Shown: piece by piece, positions 9,243 to 18,212 of the stretch | How the letters are laid out: each line of letters starts with the position of its first letter | Numbering within the stretch: the stretch's first letter is position 1 | Virus record (IMG/VR): IMGVR_UViG_2778261447_000005 | Coordinates: 1 to 18,499 of that record | DNA length: 18,499 nucleotides | Source of the DNA: a virus | Lineage: Duplodnaviria > Heunggongvirae > Uroviricota > Caudoviricetes | Reading direction: 5' to 3' (one strand) | Program-made: the position numbers and the translations under genes | The notes under the pieces: generated by a model | What the model was told of the DNA's origin: nothing | What the model saw: the letters and a program-made list of their open reading frames with translations, nothing else | The model's database searches: none

Positions 9243-10994
9243 ATGATTCAGGATACATTTGTTCGCCAGCGGGCACGCCAGCTGTACTGGCAGGGTTACC
9301 CTGTTGCGGAAATTTCCCGCCTTATGGGTATCAACCAGAACACGATCCATTCGTGGAAAAAACGCGACCAGTGGGATGAGACGCCCCCGGTTCAGCGTGT
9401 CACGCAGTCCATGGATGCGCGACTCATTCAGCTCACGGAAAAACAGAATAAAACAGGCGGGGACTTTAAGGAAATTGATTTGCTGACCCGTCAGCTTAAA
9501 AAGCTGCATGACGGTCTGCCGGATGAGACGGCAACAGGAAAGAAAGGCCGGGCGAAAAAACGCAAAAATCATTTCACGCCGGAACAGATCGCGGCGCTGC
9601 GGGAAAAAATTACCGACAGGCTGGCCGGACACCAGCGCAAATGGCTTGATGCTATCGGTGCCTGTGAGCGTGCCGGAATTACTGACAGGATGATCCTGAA
9701 ATCCCGCCAGATTGGGGCGACCTGGTATTTTGCGCAGGAAGCGCTGCTGATGGCGCTGCGTGACGATGTGGCACAACCTTACCAGCGTAACCAGATTTTT
9801 TTGTCTGCGTCTCGTCGTCAGGCGCTCCAGTTTAAAAGCATTATTCAGAAGGCTGCATCTGAAGTTGATGTGGAACTGAAAGGGGGCGATAAAGTCATCC
9901 TCTCCAACGGTGCAGAGCTGCATTTTCTCGGCACTTCTGCGGCCACCGCGCAAGCGTACACAGGGAATCTGTATTTTGATGAGTTTTTCTGGACGGGGCG
10001 TTTCGCAGAGCTGCGCAAGGTGGCTGCTGCTATGGCAACGCTGGATGGTTTGCGGTGTACCTATTTTTCCACGCCATCAAGTGAAACACATGAGGCGTAT
10101 GCATACTGGAACGGCGATCACTGGAATGAAGGGCTTCGTACTCATAAACGTCAGCATTTTGATGTGAGCTGGAATGCGCTTCATAACGGCCTTATCTGTC
10201 CTGACTATATCTGGCGGCAAATTGTGACGCTGGAAGATGTGGTCAGTCAGGGATGGACGTTAACCAACATTGACAAAATCCGGCGCAATAACACTGAAGA
10301 CGAGTTCCGCAATCTCTACATGTGTGAATTTGCTCGCGAAGGGGAATCGGCATTTAACCTGAATATCCTGATTGGCTGCGGTGTTGACGGATACGACGAG
10401 TGGCCGGACTGGAAGCCGTTTGCACCGCGTCCGATGGGGAACCGCCCTGTGTGGATTGGGTACGACGCCAACGGCAGTAGCGGGAACGGTGACAGCGGGG
10501 CGGTTGTCGTGGTGGTGCCGCCAGCCGTACCGGGCGGGCGTTTTCGCACCGTGGAGACGCGGCGGGTGCAGGGGCTGGAGTTTGAGGCGCAGGCGAAGGT
10601 GATTGAAGAGTTCACCTTTCGCTATAACGTTGAGCATATCGGTATTGACGTAACCGGCGGTCACGGGGATGCGGTGTATCAGATTGTGAAGCGCTTTTTT
10701 CCGGCAGCCATTCCCTACACCTTCACCCTGTCATCAAAGCGCACGCTGGTTCTGAAGATGCTGCAGCTCATGCGCGCCGGGCGGTGGGAGTACGACCGCA
10801 GCGAGCGCGAACTGGTGAGCGCCTTTAACGCGGTACGCAAAACAAAAACGCAGGCCGGATTTATCACCTACGAAACAGATCGCGCAAGAGGCGTAAGCCA
10901 TGGCGATCTTGCATGGGCCACCATGCTGGCCGTTATCAACGAACCTGTCGGCGGTGAACATGATGCCGCCCCCTTCAGTGTTACGGAGTTCTGA
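9243..10994 (+). CDS. P: Terminase large (ATPase) subunit gpP-like
   Basis: 583 aa; N-terminus with QLYWQGYPVAEISRLMGIN...HSWKKRDQWDE matches P2 gpP-type terminases; GAGGGGGAG RBS; divergent from O as in P2. Confidence 0.9.
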   Translation: MIQDTFVRQRARQLYWQGYPVAEISRLMGINQNTIHSWKKRDQWDETPPVQRVTQSMDARLIQLTEKQNKTGGDFKEIDLLTRQLKKLHDGLPDETATGKKGRAKKRKNHFTPEQIAALREKITDRLAGHQRKWLDAIGACERAGITDRMILKSRQIGATWYFAQEALLMALRDDVAQPYQRNQIFLSASRRQALQFKSIIQKAASEVDVELKGGDKVILSNGAELHFLGTSAATAQAYTGNLYFDEFFWTGRFAELRKVAAAMATLDGLRCTYFSTPSSETHEAYAYWNGDHWNEGLRTHKRQHFDVSWNALHNGLICPDYIWRQIVTLEDVVSQGWTLTNIDKIRRNNTEDEFRNLYMCEFAREGESAFNLNILIGCGVDGYDEWPDWKPFAPRPMGNRPVWIGYDANGSSGNGDSGAVVVVVPPAVPGGRFRTVETRRVQGLEFEAQAKVIEEFTFRYNVEHIGIDVTGGHGDAVYQIVKRFFPAAIPYTFTLSSKRTLVLKMLQLMRAGRWEYDRSERELVSAFNAVRKTKTQAGFITYETDRARGVSHGDLAWATMLAVINEPVGGEHDAAPFSVTEF

Positions 10995-12049
10995 TGAGCA
11001 GAAAAAATAAACAACGACGTACGAACGCCCGCGCAGCGCAGGGCAGCCTTGCGGATTCCCTGCGAAGCGACCCGACACTAAGTGCCTTCACGTTTGAAGG
11101 ACCTTACCGGCTGTCAGGGGCCGACCTGCTGGACAGCATGTACTGCGCCGACAACGGGCGGTGGTTTGAAACGCCCGTTGACTGGTACGGACTGGCACGG
11201 GCTGCCCGCCAGACGTCCTGGCACCAGTCGGCGCTCAGCTTCAAACGTAATGTGCTGCTGGGCTGCTATATTCCACATCCTCTGCTGTCCCGCCAGGAGT
11301 TCGCCGGGGTGGCGATGGACTGGTTTGTGTTCGGTAATGCCTGTCTTGAGCTGCGGCGCAACATGCTTGGCGAACCGCTGGCCCTGCGCCGGGCGCTGGC
11401 GAAATACATGCGACGTGGCAGCGATATGAAATCATGGTGGTATATACAGGAAGGACAGGAAGAGTACCGCTTTCGTGAGGGGACGATATGCCACCTGATG
11501 AATCCTGATATCAACCAGGAGATTTACGGGATGCCGGATTACCTGGGCGGCCTGCTGTCTGCCAGCCTGTCACATTCCGCCGATATCTTCCGCAAGCTCT
11601 ACTACGATAACGGCTCACACGCGGGCTGTATTGTCTACATCGGTGCGGCGCAGGTTGACCGTGAAAGCATGGAAAAACTGCGGGAAACACTGCAAAGCGC
11701 GCGTGGTGGCGGGGCGTTTAAAAATCTGCTCATCCACGCGGCGGGAGGTGGTAAGGATGGCGTACAGATTTTGCCGTTTCAGCAAATCACCGCAAAGGAT
11801 GAGTTCATGAACGTCAAGGCTGCATCGCGTGATGATGTGCTGTCCGTGCACCGTGTACCGCCGCAGCTGATGGGGGCCATGCCGGGTGAGAAGGGGTCAT
11901 TCGGGGATGTGGAGAAGGCAGCCCGTGTGTTTGCCATTAACGAACTGATGCCCGTCATGGAAGCAATGAAACACGTCAACGACTGGCTGGGCGAAGAGGT
12001 GATCCGTTTTAACCCTTACGCACTGTTAGACACCCAGCCCATATCCTGA
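10994..12049 (+). CDS. Q: Portal (capsid vertex) protein gpQ-like
   Basis: 351 aa; SAFTFEGP, NGRWFETPV, PDINQEIYGMPDYL, GKDGVQILPFQ and QLMGAMPGEKGSFGDVEKAARVF match P2 gpQ as I recall it; start overlaps P stop. Confidence 0.9.
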   Translation: MSRKNKQRRTNARAAQGSLADSLRSDPTLSAFTFEGPYRLSGADLLDSMYCADNGRWFETPVDWYGLARAARQTSWHQSALSFKRNVLLGCYIPHPLLSRQEFAGVAMDWFVFGNACLELRRNMLGEPLALRRALAKYMRRGSDMKSWWYIQEGQEEYRFREGTICHLMNPDINQEIYGMPDYLGGLLSASLSHSADIFRKLYYDNGSHAGCIVYIGAAQVDRESMEKLRETLQSARGGGAFKNLLIHAAGGGKDGVQILPFQQITAKDEFMNVKAASRDDVLSVHRVPPQLMGAMPGEKGSFGDVEKAARVFAINELMPVMEAMKHVNDWLGEEVIRFNPYALLDTQPIS

Positions 12050-12075
12050 CGCGCTTCGCTTGTCTGCTGCTTCGC

Positions 12076-12100
12076 CGGGGCATAAAAAATTTATGCCCCG
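12076..12100. terminator. Perfect 11-bp stem / 3-nt loop hairpin between convergent Q and the 12116 ORF
   Basis: cGGGGCATAAAaaaTTTATGCCCCg read directly; lies 27 nt after the Q stop and 16 nt after the convergent ORF stop. No flanking U-tract, so terminator function is inferred from position only. Confidence 0.45.
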
Positions 12101-12115
12101 ACTCTCCAGCTCTGC

Positions 12116-12619
12116 TTAACGAAGTGCTGATGGCGCTCGCTTTTTCAGGTGATTAGCGATGTGCTTTTTCATGTGCATAACAACATCGCCCCAGGCTTCT
12201 TCGCTGGGTTTATTGATAAATACGCGAACAGAAATATCGTCTTCCACCCGGACTCTCAGAGACACCCGTTCCGCATCTACTGAATATAATTCAAGTGCAA
12301 TAACCACGCTTACCGGGTAGCTGCTGTCAGATGACTTAACCCAGGTTCGCACGGCCATGCGGAAAATATTGTCTGGTGCAGATGCGATATTGTGGACTGA
12401 AAGAGGACTAAAATCCGCCGCTGTCTTACATGGCAAGCCTGTCTCCACGTAGCGGTGCAGGTCGCCATCATCGTCTTCCCAGTACATGGATGGAAGCCCC
12501 AGCCATTCTTCATAGAAATCAATCAGCCTTGCCGCTTCATCCCGCAAAATTTGAGCTGCCTCAGCGCGTTTTTCTTCAGCTTCACGATTGATCTGGCATA
12601 AATCATTAAAGTGGCTCAT
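12116..12619 (-). CDS. Hypothetical protein, unrecognised family (accessory/moron candidate); alternative in-frame start at 12826/12829 would give ~237 aa
   Basis: ATG 12619 is preceded by AAGAGGA at optimal spacing (MSHFNDLCQINREAEEKRAEAAQILRDEAARL..., 167 aa). The same frame stays open 70 codons further upstream (TTG-ATG at 12829/12826) but without an RBS. No resemblance to P2 structural or replication proteins that I can recall. Confidence 0.55.
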   Translation of the reverse strand: MSHFNDLCQINREAEEKRAEAAQILRDEAARLIDFYEEWLGLPSMYWEDDDGDLHRYVETGLPCKTAADFSPLSVHNIASAPDNIFRMAVRTWVKSSDSSYPVSVVIALELYSVDAERVSLRVRVEDDISVRVFINKPSEEAWGDVVMHMKKHIANHLKKRAPSALR

Positions 12620-13045
12620 GACATTATCCTCTTTTGAGTTGATGCCTGCCGCTATTCTGACTTTGCCCGGGTTCTCCTGCAAGCTGGTTATTCCTTCAGA
12701 TAATTTCACAACATCTCCAACCTTGTAGCCATCATCGCCGGGCGGATGCTTACGCAACCCCGCAACTCTGACGACATATTCTCGCTGCCTCAGTGCGATT
12801 TTGACGGCCTTATCTTTCACCCCCATCAAATCAAGCTTTTACGTCTTTTTTACGCTCAGCGTGAGAAATACAGCCATTCTGTTGTGTCGCTGCAACATCG
12901 TTCAGGGAATGCTATTTACCCCCTGAAACGCGGGCTGTTCCCCCGTCACCTGCGCGCAGAAAAAGGCCTTTTTTCGTGCACGCACGGATCCCCGACGGAT
13001 CCAGACGCCACACGGGCCGGAAGGGCAAAAAGTCGTTCAAAAAAA

Positions 13046-13072
13046 TTGTGCAAATTTGTGCACTATTGTGCA
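13046..13072. repeat. Three perfect direct repeats of TTGTGCA at exact 10-bp phasing
   Basis: aTTGTGCAaatTTGTGCActaTTGTGCAttg read directly (13046, 13056, 13066), immediately adjacent to the terminator hairpin, inside a ~280-bp non-coding stretch. Confidence 0.5.
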
Positions 13073-13080
13073 TTGAAATA

Positions 13081-13103
13081 AACGCCCTGGAGGAGGGCGT
13101 TTT
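13081..13103. terminator. Rho-independent terminator, probably bidirectional; ends the minus-strand A-linked operon
   Basis: AACGCCCTggaggAGGGCGTT (8-bp GC-rich stem, 5-nt loop) followed by TT on plus and by TTTATTTCAAT on minus; begins 7 nt after the stop of the 13110..13511 ORF. Confidence 0.65.
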
Positions 13104-13109
13104 GCTCAT

Positions 13110-13511
13110 CTATTTATAGCCTTGCCCCTTACTGGCCAGCGCCCTGATGGCAGGGCGTGCCAACACCATATTTTGGCAATGATGAATTGCCCGGCAAAAT
13201 TCATCTCTACCCATTGGATGCTCAACTGGCAATGTAAAATACAGGTTCCATGCATCGCCTAAAAGTTGGGCTATCTTTTGTTCTTCAGATGTCAGCAAGC
13301 GGTACTCCCCATCCTTGATGTAGTCACTTGTGCCATCGACCTGCTGTTCTGCAATGTGGAAAGCACCTATTGGTTTTGCTTCCAGCGATGCCAAAGCAAT
13401 CCGTGCCAGTTTTTCCGCTTCTTCGGCTGGCAGTACAACGTTGCTACCAGGTCCGTATGTTTCGCGCCACTGCCTGATTGTCAGTAGTCGCTCTTTGGTT
13501 ATAGTGGTCAT
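13110..13511 (-). CDS. Hypothetical protein (133 aa), last gene of A-linked cassette
   Basis: ATG 13511 overlaps the upstream stop (ATGA); GAGGAT RBS; ends just before the terminator. Sequence MTTITKERLLTIRQWRETYGPGSNVVLPAEEAEKLARIALASLEAK... not recognised. Confidence 0.55.
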   Translation of the reverse strand: MTTITKERLLTIRQWRETYGPGSNVVLPAEEAEKLARIALASLEAKPIGAFHIAEQQVDGTSDYIKDGEYRLLTSEEQKIAQLLGDAWNLYFTLPVEHPMGRDEFCRAIHHCQNMVLARPAIRALASKGQGYK

Positions 13512-13717
13512 TTGTTAATCCTCAAAACTTTATGCCCGGGCGCAAAAGCACGAGTTTTGTCTTTGCTTATTCGCCAGCCATCCTTACGCGCCTCTTTTGC
13601 ACAGCCAGTCCATGACGTACCGATATATTCACCGAAGTCTGGCGTTTGATATTTACCATTTGTACACTGGCGACAATCACAATAGAGATGCATGGTGTAA
13701 CTTGCGGCAATAGCCAT
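13508..13717 (-). CDS. Hypothetical small Cys-cluster protein (69 aa), possible zinc-binding
   Basis: ATG 13717 with AGGAG RBS; contains C-x-C-x2-C ... C (HLYCDCRQC...WTGC); stop overlaps the next start. Confidence 0.5.
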   Translation of the reverse strand: MAIAASYTMHLYCDCRQCTNGKYQTPDFGEYIGTSWTGCAKEARKDGWRISKDKTRAFAPGHKVLRINK

Positions 13718-13718
13718 A

Positions 13719-14033
13719 TCAGTCTCCTTTGATGCCAGTGTTTACAACCTGACAAGCCTCTTTGAGCACCCAGTCAACAGCGTCTTGCCATGCTCCGGTT
13801 TCGACTGGCGGATTCTCACGCTTTACCAGTTCATAGAAACGTACTGCTCTAACCAGTCCATCTGACGGTTTTACCTGTAGTGCAGCCTGAGCTATGCGGT
13901 ATACCTGGAGCATACAGGCGTCGTTGATATCCATTCCGAATGGAATATCTGATGACTGAGATTCCACATCTTCCAGCCTGGCAATTTCTTTACGTAAGAA
14001 GCCTTTCAGTTCCTGCTTCTGTTTCCTGTTCAT
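13719..14033 (-). CDS. Hypothetical protein (~104 aa)
   Basis: The track ORF 13719..14048 starts on a TTG; the first ATG at 14033 (MNRKQKQELKGFLRKEIARLEDVES...) has a GAAGGA RBS. Family not recognised. Confidence 0.5.
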   Translation of the reverse strand: MNRKQKQELKGFLRKEIARLEDVESQSSDIPFGMDINDACMLQVYRIAQAALQVKPSDGLVRAVRFYELVKRENPPVETGAWQDAVDWVLKEACQVVNTGIKGD

Positions 14034-14044
14034 ATATTTTTCCT

Positions 14045-14239
14045 TCAAAGTTCGGTTCGCTGACAGGGTTTCTCTTTACGGCAGACAATGACGCTTCCTT
14101 TGCTCGAGTCGGTGATTGTTACCGTGCCGTCATCACACTGGACAATGACAACGGTGTTGCTCTTTTTCGCTACGCAGTTCGGCGTGGCTGATTGTGCGAA
14201 TGGCGCGAAAAACAGCAGAAAAAGTAATATTCTGCTCAC
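14045..14239 (-). CDS. Hypothetical small secreted protein (64 aa precursor, ~45 aa mature, 4 Cys)
   Basis: GTG start at 14239 overlapping the upstream stop (GTGA), GGGAGG 8 nt upstream. Product MSRILLFLLFFAPFAQS|ATPNCVAKKSNTVVIVQCDDGTVTITDSSKGSVIVCRKEKPCQRTEL has a classic type-I signal peptide with an AQS-type cleavage site. The track's longer 123-aa version would overlap the upstream gene out of frame. Confidence 0.5.
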   Translation of the reverse strand: MSRILLFLLFFAPFAQSATPNCVAKKSNTVVIVQCDDGTVTITDSSKGSVIVCRKEKPCQRTEL

Positions 14240-14667
14240 TGTTGTTTCCTCCCGTTCTGTGCTGGTCTGGCGAATGAATTGCGTTGTGGTGAAAAGACCA
14301 TTCGCGCCAGCGCGGCCTTGTGATTGACTGTGTTCAGTGTTCTGGCCAGTCCGCCGTTGTGCCTGCGTGTCCGCTCTTCGTGATATCTCTGCATGATTTT
14401 CCCGGCAGGCGTGCACGGCTCCGGTTCCTCCGGCGAACGGCGCGGACGAATGACGACAGTCCAGCTATGGCTCTCGCTGCCCGGCCGCCTGTTGAGTATG
14501 TCGGCGATGGTGGTCTCCGTGGTGCGATCGGGGCTGACTATCGTGATTTCCAGCTCGTCGCCCGGTTGTGGCCTTGTGGCAGGCCTGAACAGTGTCAGCA
14601 CCGGCATACGCTGGCGCATGATGGCCTCAAACTGTGGGCGCTGCATGGTGCAGCAAAATCGCGTCAT
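14236..14667 (-). CDS. Hypothetical Arg-rich protein (143 aa), translationally coupled to A
   Basis: ATG 14667 overlaps the A stop (ATGA) and is preceded by GGAGG; at the position of P2 orf91 but longer, and I do not recognise the sequence. Confidence 0.5.
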   Translation of the reverse strand: MTRFCCTMQRPQFEAIMRQRMPVLTLFRPATRPQPGDELEITIVSPDRTTETTIADILNRRPGSESHSWTVVIRPRRSPEEPEPCTPAGKIMQRYHEERTRRHNGGLARTLNTVNHKAALARMVFSPQRNSFARPAQNGRKQQ

Positions 14668-17174
14668 GCTCCCGCCTCCACTGGCTGCTCTGTGATGATG
14701 TGACGGGCTGACTCATCCCAGTACGCTGTTCCCCCGTTATCCAGACGCACACGGGCACCGTTACGCACGGAGATGATGGCCGCGTCAGGCAACTGCACAC
14801 CCAGCGCATCAAGTTCGCGGGCGATTTGCGTGTCCGTCGCGGTATCCGCAGGCACGACAATCCCCACCCTTACAGGGGTGTCAGATGCCGGTGTGGTGTC
14901 GTTTTGTCCGGTTTTTGCGCCCGACGGCTGATTTTTAATCTGATTACGCAGTTTTCTCCGATCGCCCCTGCTTAACGTATTCAGCCAGCTTTCCAGGTTC
15001 TCTTCGGGAAGCGTCAGTCGTCCGGGGTCCTGCCTGTTTTCTGGTCCGTGATTGTCTGTTTTTTCATCCCGGGGACAGTTATTGCCACGAGTCCAAGGGG
15101 CGACGGGGTCGCCCTGAAGGTCAAAACCCTCGCCCGTGCGGTTGTCTGGTGTTGTTTCTTTTTTAACCAGTTTCCACTCGTCCGGATGGGTGCATATGGT
15201 GTACCGCTCTCCGAGCGACGGGGCGCAGATTCCGTAGATACGTTGAGGGAATTCACCGTAGTCGTTGGCTTCGTCTGCGGTTTCGTATGCGGTGCGGACC
15301 AGATACTGGTTGCGCGGAATGAGCACACCACCCTGTTTCATGATGTAGGTGGCAAAACATCCCACATCTGCGGCAGCCATAATGGCGTCAATATCGTCAT
15401 GATCGAGGTGCTTCGGTGATGCCGGGTTGCGCTCCATCTGGCTTGCAAGGCGGCGGAGTTCACGCCATACCTGGCGGGGCGGAATGCCGAAAAACTGGAA
15501 CTGACGGATGCGGTGAAGGCTTGCCCAGGCAATGGCGTTCTCCACGGTTTCCGCCATGGTTTTCCCGGATTCCTCATCAACGTAAGGTTTTCCGGTTTTC
15601 GGATCATTGTTGTGGAAAGCGCTGGCGTCCAGGTTCTTACCGATATAGGTTGCGATATAGCTTGCCGGTGTGCCTTTTTCCGGGTCTATCTTCTCGCATT
15701 TAAAGCGCGGTGAAATATCGTCCCCCAGTTCGTGGCGATCTGATTTAATTGCTGCTTCGCGCATAATTTCGATGATGCGCTCTGCGTTCTCCGGGGAAGT
15801 GAATACCAGCATATGCCAGTGTGGCGTGCCGTCATGGTGTGGCTCAGCGGTTCGCACGCCGTACCAGCCCAGCCCCTCTTTTTTTATTTTTTTTCTTACG
15901 GCTGCGAAGAAGTCGTAAACCAGATAATCACTGGCATCTCGTACTGTGGCACCGTTGTATTTCGGGTTCAGGCTGCCGTTCTCGTTCACGCTGTGAAAGC
16001 GGGAAGGGGTGGTTACTGTGATGAAGAATGCGACGTCAGCCCGTAATTCGGCCACCATCTCCATCCCTCTGACGCAGACCATCATTTCATTGCGGCGGTT
16101 GCGTGGATTACCCAGGCCAGCCCAGTACACGTCCTCCAGACTCAGGCGCTCGCCGTCTTCGTTTTCAATATCCCAGCTTTTGAGAAAGTCACGGGTGCGC
16201 TGGCGCTTCTCGCGGAACTCCAGTAGTGACTCATGGCTGATATAGGGGGATTGTTTACGTGACACTCTGCCGGCGGCGCGCAGTAACTCCTCCCGCCAGA
16301 GATCGGCGACGTGGCGTAACTGGTTGTTCCACCAGGTCGCGCAGGTGATGCGCAGTACCGCACCCGGAACCCGTTCAGGGTCCGGCGGTGTGCGTCGGTT
16401 GTGCCTGATTTCGAGTTCCGGCCAGTATGGCGGGACCACGCCCAGAATTAAGGCTGTGCGTGCCACCTTCTGGTAGGCCAGCAGCCAGATAACAGGGCTG
16501 TCATTATCCTTGCCTGTCCGTTCAAGAACTTCATCACATATGCGTTCAAATTCTGCGGCGAATGCCTGGGCTGTCAGTGTGGCGATGCGCTGGATTTCGT
16601 CACGGGTGAGTTGCGGCAGTGTGAGCAGTTCTTCAAGGCGATGGCGCACGACGGTGGTTTTGAATGCCGGCGTTGCAAAGCGGTCGTTAACCCTTTCAAT
16701 ACGTTTCAGGCGCGCACGCAGTCCACGGCGAACGAAATTATCGGCCACGTATGCGCTGTTGTTTTTTACACCTTCACTGCGGGCACTTTGCTGTTTCCGG
16801 TTCAGTCGTGCCAGATCACGGATCAACACACTGGCAAGAAACGAGGGCAGGGTGCGAAGTTCGGCTATCGCCTCCGATACCGCCGTTGGCGGATTTTCGC
16901 GTCTGTGTCGTGCCAGCTTATCCAGCCTTATCTGCCGCTCTTCGTCCCGGTGAAGGTGTGAATTAATTTGCTTACCTTTGTCCGTGGTTGTCAGGAAGGC
17001 CACGGTTTCTTCATCCAGCCGGGCCTCAGTGCGAATGTCTTCGGTGAGGTAGTCACGGATTGCCCGTTGTAATGCGGTTGGCTTCTGCGGTAATGCTCTG
17101 CCGAATGTCTCAGGATCAATAACCGGCAGCGGGGCGTTCCACGGGTACGCCAGGTGCGTGTGGTGATGGCTCAT
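14664..17174 (-). CDS. A: Replication initiation protein gpA-like (HUH rolling-circle endonuclease)
   Basis: 836 aa; YPWNAP near the N-terminus, HUH motif in EPHHDGTPHWHMLVF, catalytic-Tyr motif SYIATYIGKN; all match P2 gpA as I recall it. GGGGAG RBS. Confidence 0.9.
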   Translation of the reverse strand: MSHHHTHLAYPWNAPLPVIDPETFGRALPQKPTALQRAIRDYLTEDIRTEARLDEETVAFLTTTDKGKQINSHLHRDEERQIRLDKLARHRRENPPTAVSEAIAELRTLPSFLASVLIRDLARLNRKQQSARSEGVKNNSAYVADNFVRRGLRARLKRIERVNDRFATPAFKTTVVRHRLEELLTLPQLTRDEIQRIATLTAQAFAAEFERICDEVLERTGKDNDSPVIWLLAYQKVARTALILGVVPPYWPELEIRHNRRTPPDPERVPGAVLRITCATWWNNQLRHVADLWREELLRAAGRVSRKQSPYISHESLLEFREKRQRTRDFLKSWDIENEDGERLSLEDVYWAGLGNPRNRRNEMMVCVRGMEMVAELRADVAFFITVTTPSRFHSVNENGSLNPKYNGATVRDASDYLVYDFFAAVRKKIKKEGLGWYGVRTAEPHHDGTPHWHMLVFTSPENAERIIEIMREAAIKSDRHELGDDISPRFKCEKIDPEKGTPASYIATYIGKNLDASAFHNNDPKTGKPYVDEESGKTMAETVENAIAWASLHRIRQFQFFGIPPRQVWRELRRLASQMERNPASPKHLDHDDIDAIMAAADVGCFATYIMKQGGVLIPRNQYLVRTAYETADEANDYGEFPQRIYGICAPSLGERYTICTHPDEWKLVKKETTPDNRTGEGFDLQGDPVAPWTRGNNCPRDEKTDNHGPENRQDPGRLTLPEENLESWLNTLSRGDRRKLRNQIKNQPSGAKTGQNDTTPASDTPVRVGIVVPADTATDTQIARELDALGVQLPDAAIISVRNGARVRLDNGGTAYWDESARHIITEQPVEAGA

Positions 17175-17937: not shown

Positions 17938-17977
17938 GGTTGCAATTCTGGGTGGCGAGACGTACAGGGTTGCAACC
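17938..17977. promoter_or_regulatory. Two GGTTGCAA boxes 30 bp apart (second is the perfect palindrome GGTTGCAACC) upstream of the early operon; candidate operator and -35 elements
   Basis: agaGGTTGCAAttctgg at 17938-17945 and cagGGTTGCAACCacc at 17968-17977, read directly. TTGCAA resembles a -35 hexamer on either strand. Located 50-90 bp upstream of the 75-aa ORF start. Confidence 0.4.
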
Positions 17978-18070
17978 ACCGGCAAACGAAGAAACCGGCC
18001 CGACCGAAGTCGGCCCCGTACGCCCCACCATAATTCTGGTGCGAAAAAGACGTGGCGATACGGTACGCAC

Positions 18071-18091
18071 AAAAAAACCGCTGGCGCGGTT
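18071..18091 (-). terminator. Putative rho-independent terminator on minus strand
   Basis: On the minus strand AACCGCgccaGCGGTT (6-bp stem, 4-nt loop) followed by a T-run of ~7; lies ~120 nt downstream of the truncated ORF ending at 18213. Confidence 0.45.
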
Positions 18092-18113
18092 GTGCGCTTC
18101 GTTTGTCAGCGGG

Positions 18114-18121
18114 GGTTGCAA
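18114..18121. promoter_or_regulatory. Third GGTTGCAA box embedded in a near-palindrome
   Basis: cgGGGGTTGCAAtcccgg read directly; same 8-mer as the two boxes at 17938-17977. Confidence 0.35.
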
Positions 18122-18212
18122 TCCCGGCACCCGTTTTATGAGGTGCAGCGGAAATGTAACCTGACTGATTGCGGCATGGCAAGCGGTTTTTTTGTGTGTG
18201 CATAGTGGTTAC

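What the first reader, a model, noticed from the sequence alone, without database searches (positions are those of the whole stretch)
13110..14667. Five-gene cassette of unrecognised small proteins fused onto the 3' end of replication gene A, at the P2 orf91/tin/old cargo position
Five ORFs (143, 64, ~104, 69, 133 aa) follow gpA on the same strand with overlapping or near-overlapping stop/start codons (ATGA at 14664-14667, GTGA at 14236-14239, ATGA at 13508-13511, 1-nt gap at 13718), each with its own Shine-Dalgarno, and the chain ends at a strong hairpin terminator (13081-13103). None resembles any P2 structural, lysis or replication protein I can recall. In P2-like phages the segment between gene A and cos/Q is the classic variable cargo locus (tin, old) and a documented hotspot for anti-phage and superinfection-exclusion systems. 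The cassette mixes a secreted 4-Cys peptide, a Cys-cluster mini-protein and three soluble proteins, which looks like a multi-component accessory system rather than core phage functions.
Basis: partly seen in the sequence, partly recalled or inferred. Interest (0 to 1): 0.8.

Follow-up and report, generated by a model that had tools for sequence, protein, structure and literature searches.

The report
Mosaic small-gene string after phage gene A
The five small genes after replication gene A of this P2-family prophage are real, but they are a patchwork of independently shuffled phage accessory genes of unknown function in an already catalogued variable hotspot, not a recognisable multi-part defence system.

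Summary
Five same-strand ORFs (143, 64, 104, 69, 133 aa) follow gpA with the stated 4-nt overlaps, each has a Shine-Dalgarno, and the chain ends at a hairpin about 130 bp before a candidate cos site. All five show purifying selection (dN/dS 0.13-0.37).

The "five-gene cassette/system" reading is not supported.
- ORF1 follows gpA directly in 18 diverged relatives. ORFs 2-5 are absent from all of them.
- ORF2 recurs alone in a P88-like interval.
- ORF3 recurs in phage P88 without ORF4/5, and its C-terminal half lies inside Ea22-like genes.
- ORF4 plus the first ~48 codons of ORF5 are 93-97% identical to DNA of the exo-xis region of Stx/lambdoid and P1-like phages.
- ORF5 is an in-frame chimera of a very promiscuous N-terminal module and a small domain that elsewhere stands alone.

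No ORF hits Pfam, NCBIfam, PADLOC or PDB. No promoter-like site lies inside the string. ORF2 and ORF4 have relatives in virulent phages.

The gpA-gpQ interval is a published defence hotspot, and this exact arrangement is listed there as six "hypothetical" proteins, untested. My best reading is a set of distal early-operon accessory genes acting singly during lytic growth. Defence is not excluded. Interest is low to moderate.

The parts
14664..17174 (-). Replication endonuclease gpA (836 aa). It is the anchor gene, and its stop overlaps the ORF1 start.
   Evidence: PF05840 E=2e-104 and phrog_91 'nicking at origin'. It is 33% identical to 186 A, 32% to P2 A and 51% to P88 gpA.
14236..14667 (-). 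ORF1 (143 aa). A lineage-conserved companion of gpA and positional analogue of P2 orf91. It has an N-terminal alpha/beta part, a long helix (residues 87-124) and a basic tail.
   Evidence: It lies directly after gpA in the 18 diverged IMG/VR loci (56-74% aa identity), even where gpA is only 53% identical. Nucleotide homology of relatives runs from inside the gpA 3' end (~14988) to 14235/14236 and stops there. dN/dS is 0.14-0.37. It matches phrog_14984. Only 17 protein clusters were found, and every source-given name among them is E. coli. AF2 pLDDT is 64 and there is no fold hit. hhalign against P2 Orf91 gives probability 0.2%.
14045..14239 (-). ORF2 (64 aa, GTG start). Predicted to be exported: it has an N-terminal signal peptide (MSRILLFLLFFAPFAQS|A) and a mature ~47-aa part with 4 Cys.
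   Evidence: The sequence is. It matches phrog_20764/11462. Only 3 protein clusters were found. A 72%-identical homologue sits alone between Plasmid_stab_B and zf-C4_ClpX genes of a P88-like interval. dN/dS is 0.34. Weak homologues occur in Erwinia jumbo phages. It is present in 23 of 5426 E. coli genomes.
13719..14033 (-). ORF3 (104 aa). A short N-terminal helical module plus a portable C-terminal domain (residues ~57-104) that also ends Ea22-like proteins.
   Evidence: It matches phrog_26213/660/250. It is 92% identical (nt and aa) to P88 gp20, where it is followed directly by the terminator/cos region. Its C-terminal half matches DNA in 737 E. coli genomes, some of it inside ead/Ea22-like genes. 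dN/dS is 0.16.
13508..13717 (-). ORF4 (69 aa). A small protein with invariant IAAxY..LYCDCxxC and a near-conserved His62, so probably a CCCH metal site. In lambdoid phages it is a constant 'anchor' gene.
   Evidence: It matches phrog_926 at E=7e-37. 47 clusters were found; the named ones are from enterobacteria (E. coli, Shigella, Salmonella, Kosakonia, Pantoea). AF2 pLDDT is 76. PDB gives no hit. BFVD hits are uncharacterised small proteins of Klebsiella phage KpS110 (E 4e-6) and actinophages. It is 93% identical in the exo-xis region of Stx2 phage 86 and in P1-like RCS47. dN/dS is 0.13.
13110..13511 (-). ORF5 (133 aa). An in-frame chimera. Residues 1-~70 are the promiscuous 'MTTITKERLL...ARIALASLEA' N-terminal module. 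Residues ~71-133 are a small domain that elsewhere is a free-standing 71-86-aa protein.
   Evidence: PHROG hits are split: phrog_60/3323/660 at the N-terminus and phrog_13916 at the C-terminus. An exhaustive phmmer search found 1175 clusters sharing only the N-module, at the head of proteins 53-418 aa long (among the 150 listed). The C-terminal part matches P0084, P0089 and P0202. 25 of 65 sampled partners carry DUF551; ORF5 itself carries none. PGAP calls it a truncated pseudogene.
13080..13102 (-). Intrinsic-terminator-like hairpin that ends the gpA-ORF5 chain.
   Evidence: dG is -15.2 kcal/mol with z = -3.5. A hairpin is kept at this position in P88, in an IMG/VR relative and, with different sequence, in PhiR44_2.
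13035..13065 (-). Three TGCACAA repeats, including a second hairpin followed by T7. This is a conserved non-coding stretch upstream of cos.
   Evidence: Terminator-like site at 13063-13048. The stretch is invariant across 4 phages. P2 has analogous TGCAT repeats upstream of cosR.
12932..12950 (-). Candidate cos 19-mer GGTGACGGGGGAACAGCCC, the virion chromosome end.
   Evidence: It matches 13 of 19 positions of P2 cosR GGCGAGGCGGGGAAAGCAC. It lies in a block conserved in P88, PhiR44_2 and L020. The small ORF just downstream of it lies at nt 202-330 of the Xuanwuvirus P884B11 record. This is inferred, not demonstrated.
12116..12826 (-). ORF6 (236 aa as annotated). It is a sixth cargo gene lying between the candidate cos and the gpQ stop. 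The first 44 codons are a conserved Xuanwuvirus short ORF. The body (12695-12113) is an insertion relative to P88. The true start may be Met71.
   Evidence: Residues 70-236 match all of phrog_5091 (164 aa). tblastn matches only residues 2-44 in P88-like phages. There is no Pfam, PADLOC or PDB hit.
10994..12049 (+). Portal gene gpQ, convergent with the cargo. It is the far boundary of the hotspot.
   Evidence: TIGR01540 portal_PBSX at E=4e-62. It is 82% identical to the P88 portal.

Best explanation
The region is the distal end of the early (replication) operon of a P88/Xuanwuvirus-related, P2-family prophage of E. coli. It is not one cassette. It has three layers.

1. ORF1 belongs with the 3' end of gene A as a lineage-conserved unit. 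It occupies the same overlapping position as P2 orf91 but is not homologous to it.
2. ORFs 2-5 are four independently assorting small accessory genes that fill the slot between the A module and the terminator/cos. ORF3, ORF4 and the N-terminal module of ORF5 come from the gene pool of the lambdoid exo-xis ('ea') region. There, a constant small gene (ORF4) is followed by a gene with a constant 'MTTIT...' head and swappable C-terminal domains.
3. ORF5 arose by an in-frame fusion of that head to a small gene already resident at the end of P88-like intervals.

Inferred mechanism: the five genes are transcribed by read-through from gene A and translated by stop/start coupling. They would therefore be made with the replication protein after induction or infection, and transcription would stop at the hairpins before cos. 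Each protein most likely acts on its own as a non-essential early modulator of host physiology, the lysis-lysogeny decision, or counter-defence. ORF2 would act in the periplasm and ORF4 would act as a small metal-binding protein.

Shown here: the gene structure, purifying selection, the mosaic boundaries, independent assortment, and the absence of known defence domains. Inferred: the timing of expression and the class of function.

The confidence of 0.6 is a blend. I put about 0.85 on the structural and evolutionary part and about 0.5 on the functional part.
For: - **Coupling and gene structure.**
- **Transcription signals.** No sigma-70-like site and no terminator-like site lie on the - strand between 15000 and 13110. 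Hairpins lie at 13102-13080 and 13063-13048.
- **ORF1 linkage to gpA.** ORF1 follows gpA in the 18 diverged loci, and homology ends at its stop codon.
- **GC step.** GC falls from 0.60-0.64 to 0.46-0.49 at the ORF1/ORF2 border.
- **Independent assortment.**
  - An ORF2 homologue occurs alone in a gpA-ParM-StbB-[ORF2]-zfClpX interval.
  - ORF3 occurs in P88 and is followed directly by the terminator.
  - ORF4 with the ORF5 head occurs in Stx2 phage 86, between an Ea22-like gene and a DUF551 gene. It also occurs in P1-like RCS47.
  - In 80 IMG/VR loci with ORF4, the next gene starts MTTIT or MTTLT in about 70, with bodies of 79-449 aa. gpA is nearby only in the 3 loci identical to the window.
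- **Genome counts.** ORF1 is in 24 and ORF2 in 23 of 5426 E. coli genomes. ORF3 covers at least 80% of its length in 94 genomes. The whole 2.75-kb stretch (which also includes ORF6 and flanking non-coding DNA) gives at least a partial match in about 2200 genomes, against only 24 and 23 for ORF1 and ORF2 alone.
- **ORF5 head.** It is shared by 1175 50%-identity clusters with unrelated tails.
- **Purifying selection.** It is seen on every ORF.
- **Literature on the source region.** Exo-xis genes are among the earliest transcribed and are built from a shared N-terminal segment plus portable C-terminal domains (PMC10834534).
- **Virulent-phage relatives.** ORF2 has relatives in Erwinia jumbo phages. 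ORF4 has relatives in Klebsiella KpS110 and actinophages. I know these phages as virulent or lytic; that classification is my own knowledge and was not tested here. If correct, it argues for a phage-intrinsic role rather than a prophage-only one.
- **Defence databases.** There is no significant PADLOC hit.
Against: - Expression timing is inferred only from gene arrangement and a crude consensus scan. Weak or non-sigma-70 promoters would be missed.
- The interval is a proven defence hotspot, and a sizeable fraction of unannotated loci tested there were active. [quoted passage not shown] Six of 8 unknown P4 loci worked in PMC13586616.
- No function is known for any homologue, so 'early modulator' is a class, not a mechanism.
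- The 22 genomes with the full arrangement are 99.9-100% identical, so they say nothing about selection for keeping the set together.
- The AF2 models are only of low to moderate confidence.
Confidence: 0.6

Rival explanations
1. Some or all of ORFs 2-5, possibly with ORF6, form a new anti-phage defence or superinfection-exclusion system carried as hotspot cargo. One example would be a periplasmic exclusion peptide (ORF2) together with cytoplasmic effectors.
For: - The location is the published gpA-gpQ defence hotspot.
- Sibling phages carry an RmrA-like protein in the same slot (PADLOC E=3e-35).
- The proteins are uncharacterised, so the idea cannot be excluded by homology.
- ORF2 has an export signal, as several known exclusion proteins do. 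The signal is read from the sequence; the parallel with exclusion proteins is my own knowledge.
- The success rate for unknown hotspot loci is high in the literature.
Against: - There is no PADLOC hit.
- The genes assort independently rather than as a unit.
- They are co-oriented with gene A and translationally coupled to it, with no promoter-like site. P2 old/tin have their own promoter.
- ORF2 and ORF4 have relatives in virulent phages.
Confidence: 0.2
2. ORFs 3-5 are recombination debris. On this view they are leftover fragments of lambdoid genes dragged in by homologous exchange, with ORF5 a dead fusion and no function in this phage.
For: - PGAP marks ORF5 as an incomplete pseudogene.
- ORF5 is a chimera found full-length only in its own cluster.
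- The conserved ORF4/'MTTIT' junction looks like a recombination linker.
- One complete genome (GF60) has about 2.6 kb inserted within ORF3.
Against: - All frames are intact and keep Shine-Dalgarno sites and start/stop coupling.
- dN/dS is 0.13-0.23 for ORF3, ORF4 and the ORF5 head against 7-13% diverged copies.
- The C-terminal domain of ORF5 is complete relative to free-standing homologues and phrog_13916, covering positions 5-66 of 67.
Confidence: 0.1
3. The whole string is part of the core replication module of this phage group, acting as accessory replication factors.
For: - ORF1 follows gpA in the 18 diverged relatives and shares a recombination block with the gpA 3' end.
- P2 likewise has orf91 overlapping the stop of A.
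Against: - ORFs 2-5 are absent from the 18 diverged relatives that keep ORF1.
- P88 and PhiR44_2 lack ORF1 and have ParM after gpA instead.
- ORF1 shows no homology to Orf91/DUF3850.
Confidence: 0.05

Closest known systems
P2-like gpA-gpQ (cos-proximal) variable hotspot: P2 orf91-tin-old, and the loci of Rousset et al. 2022 Table S5
   Same: - The position is the same, between the replication endonuclease and the portal, next to cos.
- Content varies strongly among related phages.
- This very arrangement is listed in that table as six 'hypothetical' proteins (WP_000196517 + WP_001080487 + WP_072668117 + WP_024211219 + WP_000951718 + WP_000086827), for example in NZ_CP033635.
   Different: - P2 tin/old are transcribed leftward from their own promoter and are proven exclusion genes.
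- Here the genes run on from gene A, no promoter is seen, they hit no defence model, and they have not been tested.
Lambdoid exo-xis ('ea') region genes: the Ead/Ea22-like family, DUF551 proteins and their neighbours
   Same: - ORF4 and the ORF5 head are 93-97% identical at nucleotide level to DNA lying after the Ea22-like gene and before DUF551 genes in Stx and other lambdoid phages.
- The ORF3 C-terminal half occurs as the tail of Ea22-like genes.
- The architecture is the same: a shared N-terminal segment plus portable C-terminal domains.
   Different: - Here the genes sit in a P2-family phage after gene A, not between exo and xis.
- ORF3 and ORF5 do not reach any Pfam threshold, including Ead_Ea22 and DUF551.
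- The studied exo-xis genes (ea22, ea8.5, orf60a/61/63/73) are not homologues of these ORFs.
P2 Orf91 (DUF3850/ASCH), the first gene after A
   Same: ORF1 has the same position and the same 4-nt ATGA overlap with the stop of A.
   Different: There is no sequence or profile similarity: hhalign probability is 0.2% and Pfam gives no hit. The ORF1 model has low confidence, and there is no ASCH-like fold match.
Escherichia phage P88 / PhiR44_2 (Xuanwuvirus) gpA-to-portal interval
   Same: - The portal is 82% identical and ORF3 92%.
- The terminator-cos block is 87% identical at nucleotide level.
- The interval is the same kind of string of small same-strand genes.
   Different: - P88 has ParM, a partition protein and a ClpX-type zinc-finger protein.
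- P88 lacks ORF1, ORF2, ORF4, ORF5 and the body of ORF6.
- gpA is only 51% identical.

Membership tests
Cargo of the P2-like gpA-gpQ hotspot | Lies between the replication endonuclease gpA and the portal gpQ, next to cos | tested here: met
   gpA is at 17174-14664 and gpQ at 10994-12049, with a candidate cos at 12950-12932. The hotspot is defined in PMC9122126.
Cargo of the P2-like gpA-gpQ hotspot | Presence/absence polymorphism among related phages | tested here: met
   ORFs 2-6 are absent from 18 relatives whose interval varies from 0.7 to 4 kb. For ORF1 this feature is not met, because ORF1 is conserved.
Known anti-phage defence systems (PADLOC-DB 2.0) | At least one protein matching a defence-system model | tested here: not met
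   No hit at E<0.01 for ORF1-6. The only match is ORF3 against PDC-M28C at E=0.025 and 11 bits.
Lysogenic-conversion exclusion genes of the tin/old type | Own promoter that allows expression from the repressed prophage | tested here: inconclusive
   No sigma-70-like site lies on the - strand in 11900-15000 and there is no LexA box. A consensus scan cannot exclude weak promoters. Expression data are needed.
P2 Orf91 / DUF3850 (ASCH-like) | Match to the DUF3850/ASCH profile or to Orf91 itself | tested here: not met
   Pfam gives no hit at E<0.1. hhalign of the ORF1 family against P2 Orf91 gives probability 0.2%. Foldseek gives no ASCH match, but the model pLDDT is only 64.
Ead/Ea22-like and DUF551 proteins of the lambdoid exo-xis region | Pfam/InterPro signature (Ead_Ea22 or DUF551) | tested here: not met
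   ORF3 and ORF5 have no Pfam hit. 25 of 65 proteins sharing the ORF5 head do carry DUF551.
Ead/Ea22-like and DUF551 proteins of the lambdoid exo-xis region | Shared N-terminal segment joined to a swappable C-terminal domain | tested here: met
   The ORF5 head (residues 1-50/72) is 80-93% identical at the start of hundreds of otherwise unrelated proteins. The ORF3 tail is found in Ea22-like genes. The architecture is described in PMC10834534.
Multi-gene system (co-inherited functional unit) | Components co-occur across independent genomic backgrounds | tested here: not met
   The full set occurs only in one near-identical prophage lineage (22 of 5426 genomes, 99.9-100% identity). Each component is found elsewhere without the others.
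Sec-exported small protein (ORF2) | N-terminal basic residue, hydrophobic core, and an A-x-S/A cleavage motif | tested here: met
   By inspection only. ORF2 reads MSR-ILLFLLFFAPF-AQS|A and the homologue reads MMKR-LTLLFSLFFIPL-AHS|T. No dedicated predictor was available.

The most novel reading that the evidence does not exclude
ORF4 and the gene that follows it may form a widespread two-gene module of temperate enterobacterial phages that nobody has studied. One partner is a constant small metal-binding protein. The other has a constant ~50-residue head and hundreds of interchangeable C-terminal 'effector' domains, which is a polymorphic layout reminiscent of arms-race loci. Here a P2-family phage would have captured the module as counter-defence or host-takeover cargo. 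ORF2, an exported 4-Cys peptide, could separately be a new exclusion factor.
Probability: 0.12. Interest if true: 0.6.

Novelty: new member of a known kind. Interest (0 to 1): 0.25.

Why it matters
The locus adds one more uncharacterised occupant to a hotspot that has already been mined and where untested cargo often turns out to be antiviral.

There are two useful results. First, the apparent five-gene operon breaks down into a gpA-linked conserved gene plus independently shuffled modules, so any cloning test should treat the genes one at a time. Second, genes from the lambdoid exo-xis pool have crossed into a P2-family phage.

The constant-ORF4/variable-partner arrangement is seen in dozens of phage contigs and in over a thousand protein clusters. 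It is the one aspect that could lead to something general about how temperate phages diversify early accessory functions.

Tried and rejected
- **ORF1 as a divergent P2 Orf91/DUF3850.** Rejected. Pfam, hhalign and the fold search were all negative.
- **Any ORF as a known defence protein.** Rejected. PADLOC was negative.
- **PDB sequence relatives.** None for ORF1, 3, 4, 5 or 6.
- **ORF6 as a homologue of 186 Orf97 (same position, similar size).** No similarity.
- **SOS-controlled operon like 186 p95-tum.** No LexA box in the region.
- **P2/186 cos consensus pattern.** It found nothing at up to 3 mismatches. The candidate cos came instead from alignment with P88-like phages and from comparison with P2 cosR.
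- **ORF1 tblastn against the phage GenBank collection.** No match.
- **Fold searches.** The ORF1 and ORF4 models gave no significant PDB match.
- **ORF3 and ORF5 as paralogues.** Only an 11-residue motif is shared (E 0.026).
- **Supplements of PMC13586616.** They are not held, so its defence-prediction scores could not be checked.
Full report
**1. What is in the sequence**

On the - strand the window carries the following genes.
- A 137-aa gene at 17593-17180.
- Replication endonuclease gpA at 17174-14664. It matches PF05840 at E=2e-104.
  - ORF1 is at 14667-14236 (143 aa). ATGA overlaps the gpA stop.
  - ORF2 is at 14239-14045 (64 aa, GTG start). GTGA overlaps the ORF1 stop.
  - ORF3 is at 14033-13719 (104 aa), after an 11-nt spacer.
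  - ORF4 is at 13717-13508 (69 aa), after a 1-nt spacer.
  - ORF5 is at 13511-13110 (133 aa), with an ATGA overlap.

Each start has a GGAG-like motif 6-12 nt upstream.

A 9-bp hairpin at 13102-13080 has dG -15.2 kcal/mol and z = -3.5. It is followed by a second hairpin plus T7 at 13063-13048.

PGAP annotates ORF1-4 identically in a 100%-identical prophage. It reduces ORF5 to a 45-codon 'pseudogene'.

**2. The ORFs are real genes**

Comparison with diverged homologues gives these dN/dS values.

| ORF | dN/dS |
|---|---|
| ORF1 | 0.14-0.37 |
| ORF2 | 0.34 |
| ORF3 | 0.16 |
| ORF4 | 0.13-0.14 |
| ORF5 head | 0.18-0.23 |

There were no stops in any aligned copy.

**3. Genomic setting**

Terminase gpP (9243-10994) and portal gpQ (10994-12049) converge on the cargo from the + strand.

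The phage belongs to the P2 family and is closest to P88/Xuanwuvirus. The portal is 82% identical to that of P88. gpA is 51% identical to P88 gpA, and only 32-33% identical to P2 A and 186 A.

Between the ORF5 terminator and ORF6 lies a non-coding block conserved in P88, PhiR44_2 and an IMG/VR relative. It contains three TGCACAA repeats and the 19-mer GGTGACGGGGGAACAGCCC at 12950-12932. That 19-mer matches P2 cosR at 13 of 19 positions. I take it as the probable cos. The five ORFs would then form the right end of the virion chromosome.

A sixth gene (12826-12116, 236 aa as annotated) sits between cos and the gpQ stop.

**4. The interval is a known hotspot, and this arrangement is already catalogued**

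Rousset et al. 2022 defined the gpA-gpQ interval of P2-like prophages as a defence hotspot, with 1,650 arrangements in 18,150 loci (PMC9122126). This was confirmed on 8,165 prophages in PMC13586616.

Their Table S5 lists exactly this arrangement as six 'hypothetical' proteins, for example in NZ_CP033635. It was not among the systems they tested.

In 5,426 complete E. coli genomes, 22 carry at least 80% of the 2.75-kb arrangement at 99.9-100% identity. Twenty of them carry it at full length. It is therefore one recently spread prophage lineage, found in poultry and human isolates.

**5. It is not one cassette**

*ORF1 goes with gpA.*
- In 18 diverged IMG/VR loci, an ORF1 homologue (56-74% identical) lies directly after gpA. 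ORFs 2-6 are absent from all of them.
- In those loci the distance to the portal varies from 0.7 to 4 kb. The contents include ogr-like zinc fingers, IS3 elements, and an RmrA-like protein (PADLOC E=3e-35) with a partner.
- Nucleotide homology of these relatives starts inside the gpA 3' end and stops at 14235/14236, which is the ORF1 stop codon.
- GC falls there from 0.60-0.64 to 0.46-0.49.
- P88 and PhiR44_2 lack ORF1.

*ORF2.* A 72%-identical copy sits alone between Plasmid_stab_B and zf-C4_ClpX genes of a P88-like interval.

*ORF3.* In P88 a 92%-identical ORF3 is followed within 16 bp by the terminator/cos block. ORF4+ORF5 (13721-13125) are therefore an insertion relative to P88, and so is the body of ORF6 (12695-12113).

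*ORF4 and the ORF5 head.*
- ORF4 plus the first ~46-48 codons of ORF5 (13730-13372) are 93-97% identical to DNA of Stx-converting and other lambdoid phages, and of P1-like phages.
- In Stx2 phage 86 this DNA lies between exo and int, after the Ea22-like gene and before a DUF551 gene.

*Counts in complete E. coli genomes.*

| Segment | Genomes of 5426 |
|---|---|
| ORF1 | 24 |
| ORF2 | 23 |
| ORF3 (at least 80% covered) | 94 |
| ORF3 (any part) | 737 |
| Any part of the 2.75-kb stretch | about 2200 |

**6. Nature of the individual proteins**

None has a significant Pfam, NCBIfam or PADLOC hit; ORF5's one Pfam match (Ubiquitin-like domain, E 0.052) is below the curated cut-off. A PDB sequence search of ORF1, ORF3, ORF4 and ORF5 found no credible relative; ORF2 was not searched. 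All fall into PHROG families of unknown function.

*ORF1*
- Only 17 protein clusters were found, and every source-given name among them is E. coli.
- The AF2 model is weak (pLDDT 64). It shows an alpha/beta N-terminal part and a long helix, and it gives no fold match.
- A profile comparison with P2 Orf91 (DUF3850) is negative. ORF1 is a positional analogue of Orf91, not a homologue.

*ORF2*
- It has a signal-peptide-like N-terminus and four Cys in the mature part.
- Its only other relatives are in Erwinia jumbo phages.

*ORF3*
- Its C-terminal half occurs as the tail of Ea22-like genes.

*ORF4*
- IAAxY..LYCDCxxC is invariant and His62 is nearly conserved.
- The AF2 model (pLDDT 76) is a small beta-alpha-beta-alpha fold with no PDB match.
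- It does match uncharacterised small proteins of Klebsiella phage KpS110 (E 4e-6) and several actinophages.

*ORF5*
- It is a chimera. An exhaustive phmmer search of 1.84 billion representatives found 1,175 clusters. Nearly all share only residues 1-50/72, at 80-93% identity, at the head of proteins 53-418 aa long (among the 150 listed).
- Residues 71-133 match free-standing proteins of 71-86 aa.
- Of 65 sampled partners, 25 carry DUF551 and one a dATP/dGTP pyrophosphohydrolase domain. ORF5 itself has neither.

*The ORF4 neighbourhood*
- In 80 IMG/VR loci with ORF4, the overlapping downstream gene begins MTTIT or MTTLT in about 70. Its body is 79-449 aa and highly diverse.
- The published description of the exo-xis region fits this: a shared N-terminal segment, portable C-terminal domains, and earliest transcription after infection (PMC10834534).

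**7. How it most likely works**

The following is shown by the sequence.
- Stop/start coupling runs from gpA through ORF5.
- There is no promoter-like or terminator-like site on that strand inside the string.
- Hairpins lie before cos.

From this I infer that the genes are made with gpA from the early operon after induction or infection. They would not be made from the repressed prophage. P2 tin/old differ: they are transcribed leftward from their own start sites.

Three points lead me to favour independent early accessory functions over a prophage-expressed defence system: host modulation, influence on the lysis-lysogeny decision, or counter-defence.
- ORF3-5 have an exo-xis origin.
- ORF2 and ORF4 have relatives in virulent phages.
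- The genes assort independently.

This functional part is inference. Defence is not excluded, given the hotspot and the high hit rate of unannotated cargo there.

**8. Novelty and score**

The hotspot is known, the arrangement is catalogued, and the proteins belong to existing families of unknown function. I file it as a new, uncharacterised member of a known kind.

The most novel reading still open is that ORF4 plus its constant-head, variable-tail neighbour is a functional polymorphic two-gene module. I give that about 0.12.

Overall interest is 0.25.

Noticed in passing
window 17948-18035 (-) and 18071-18146 (-): Rfam finds a C4 antisense RNA (79 bits) and an isrK Hfq-binding sRNA (62 bits). 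Both lie just upstream of the 75-aa 'derepression protein' gene (17889-17662), hence upstream of the operon that contains gpA and the five ORFs. This suggests P1/P4/Gifsy-type RNA control of the early region in this P2-family phage.
   Followed up: no
window 12116-12826 (-): ORF6 is a sixth cargo gene between the candidate cos and the portal stop. Its first 44 codons match a conserved 42-aa short ORF of Xuanwuviruses. Residues 70-236 match the whole of phrog_5091 and are an insertion relative to P88, so the real start may be Met71. PhiR44_2 has a different 187-aa gene inserted near the same place.
   Followed up: partly
window 12934-12946 and 14725-14737: An exact 13-nt repeat (ACGGGGGAACAGC on the - strand) occurs once inside the candidate cos 19-mer and once inside the 3' end of gpA. 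About 0.06 such pairs would be expected by chance in 2.8 kb (my estimate).
   Followed up: no
window 13035-13065 (-): Three TGCACAA repeats are invariant among four related phages, ~90-130 bp before the candidate cos 19-mer in - strand reading order. P2 has TGCAT repeats in the equivalent place. They could be a terminase or host-factor binding site.
   Followed up: no
L010-L012 (IMG/VR), about 7045-8700 in L011: Sibling phages carry a 381-aa RmrA-like HTH-peptidase (PADLOC E=3e-35) plus a 183-aa partner directly after the ORF1 homologue. In L010 an IS3-family element is also present.
   Followed up: partly
NZ_CP172185 (E. coli GF60) about 3720052-3725311: In this complete genome, ORF1 and the part of the locus from mid-ORF3 onward are about 2.6 kb further apart than expected. 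This implies an insertion, possibly an IS, that interrupts ORF3.
   Followed up: no
protein P0084: This 78-aa protein joins the first 20 residues of P88-type ParM to the ORF5 C-terminal domain. It is a deletion fusion, and it shows that the small domain is resident at the end of P88-like gpA-cos intervals.
   Followed up: no
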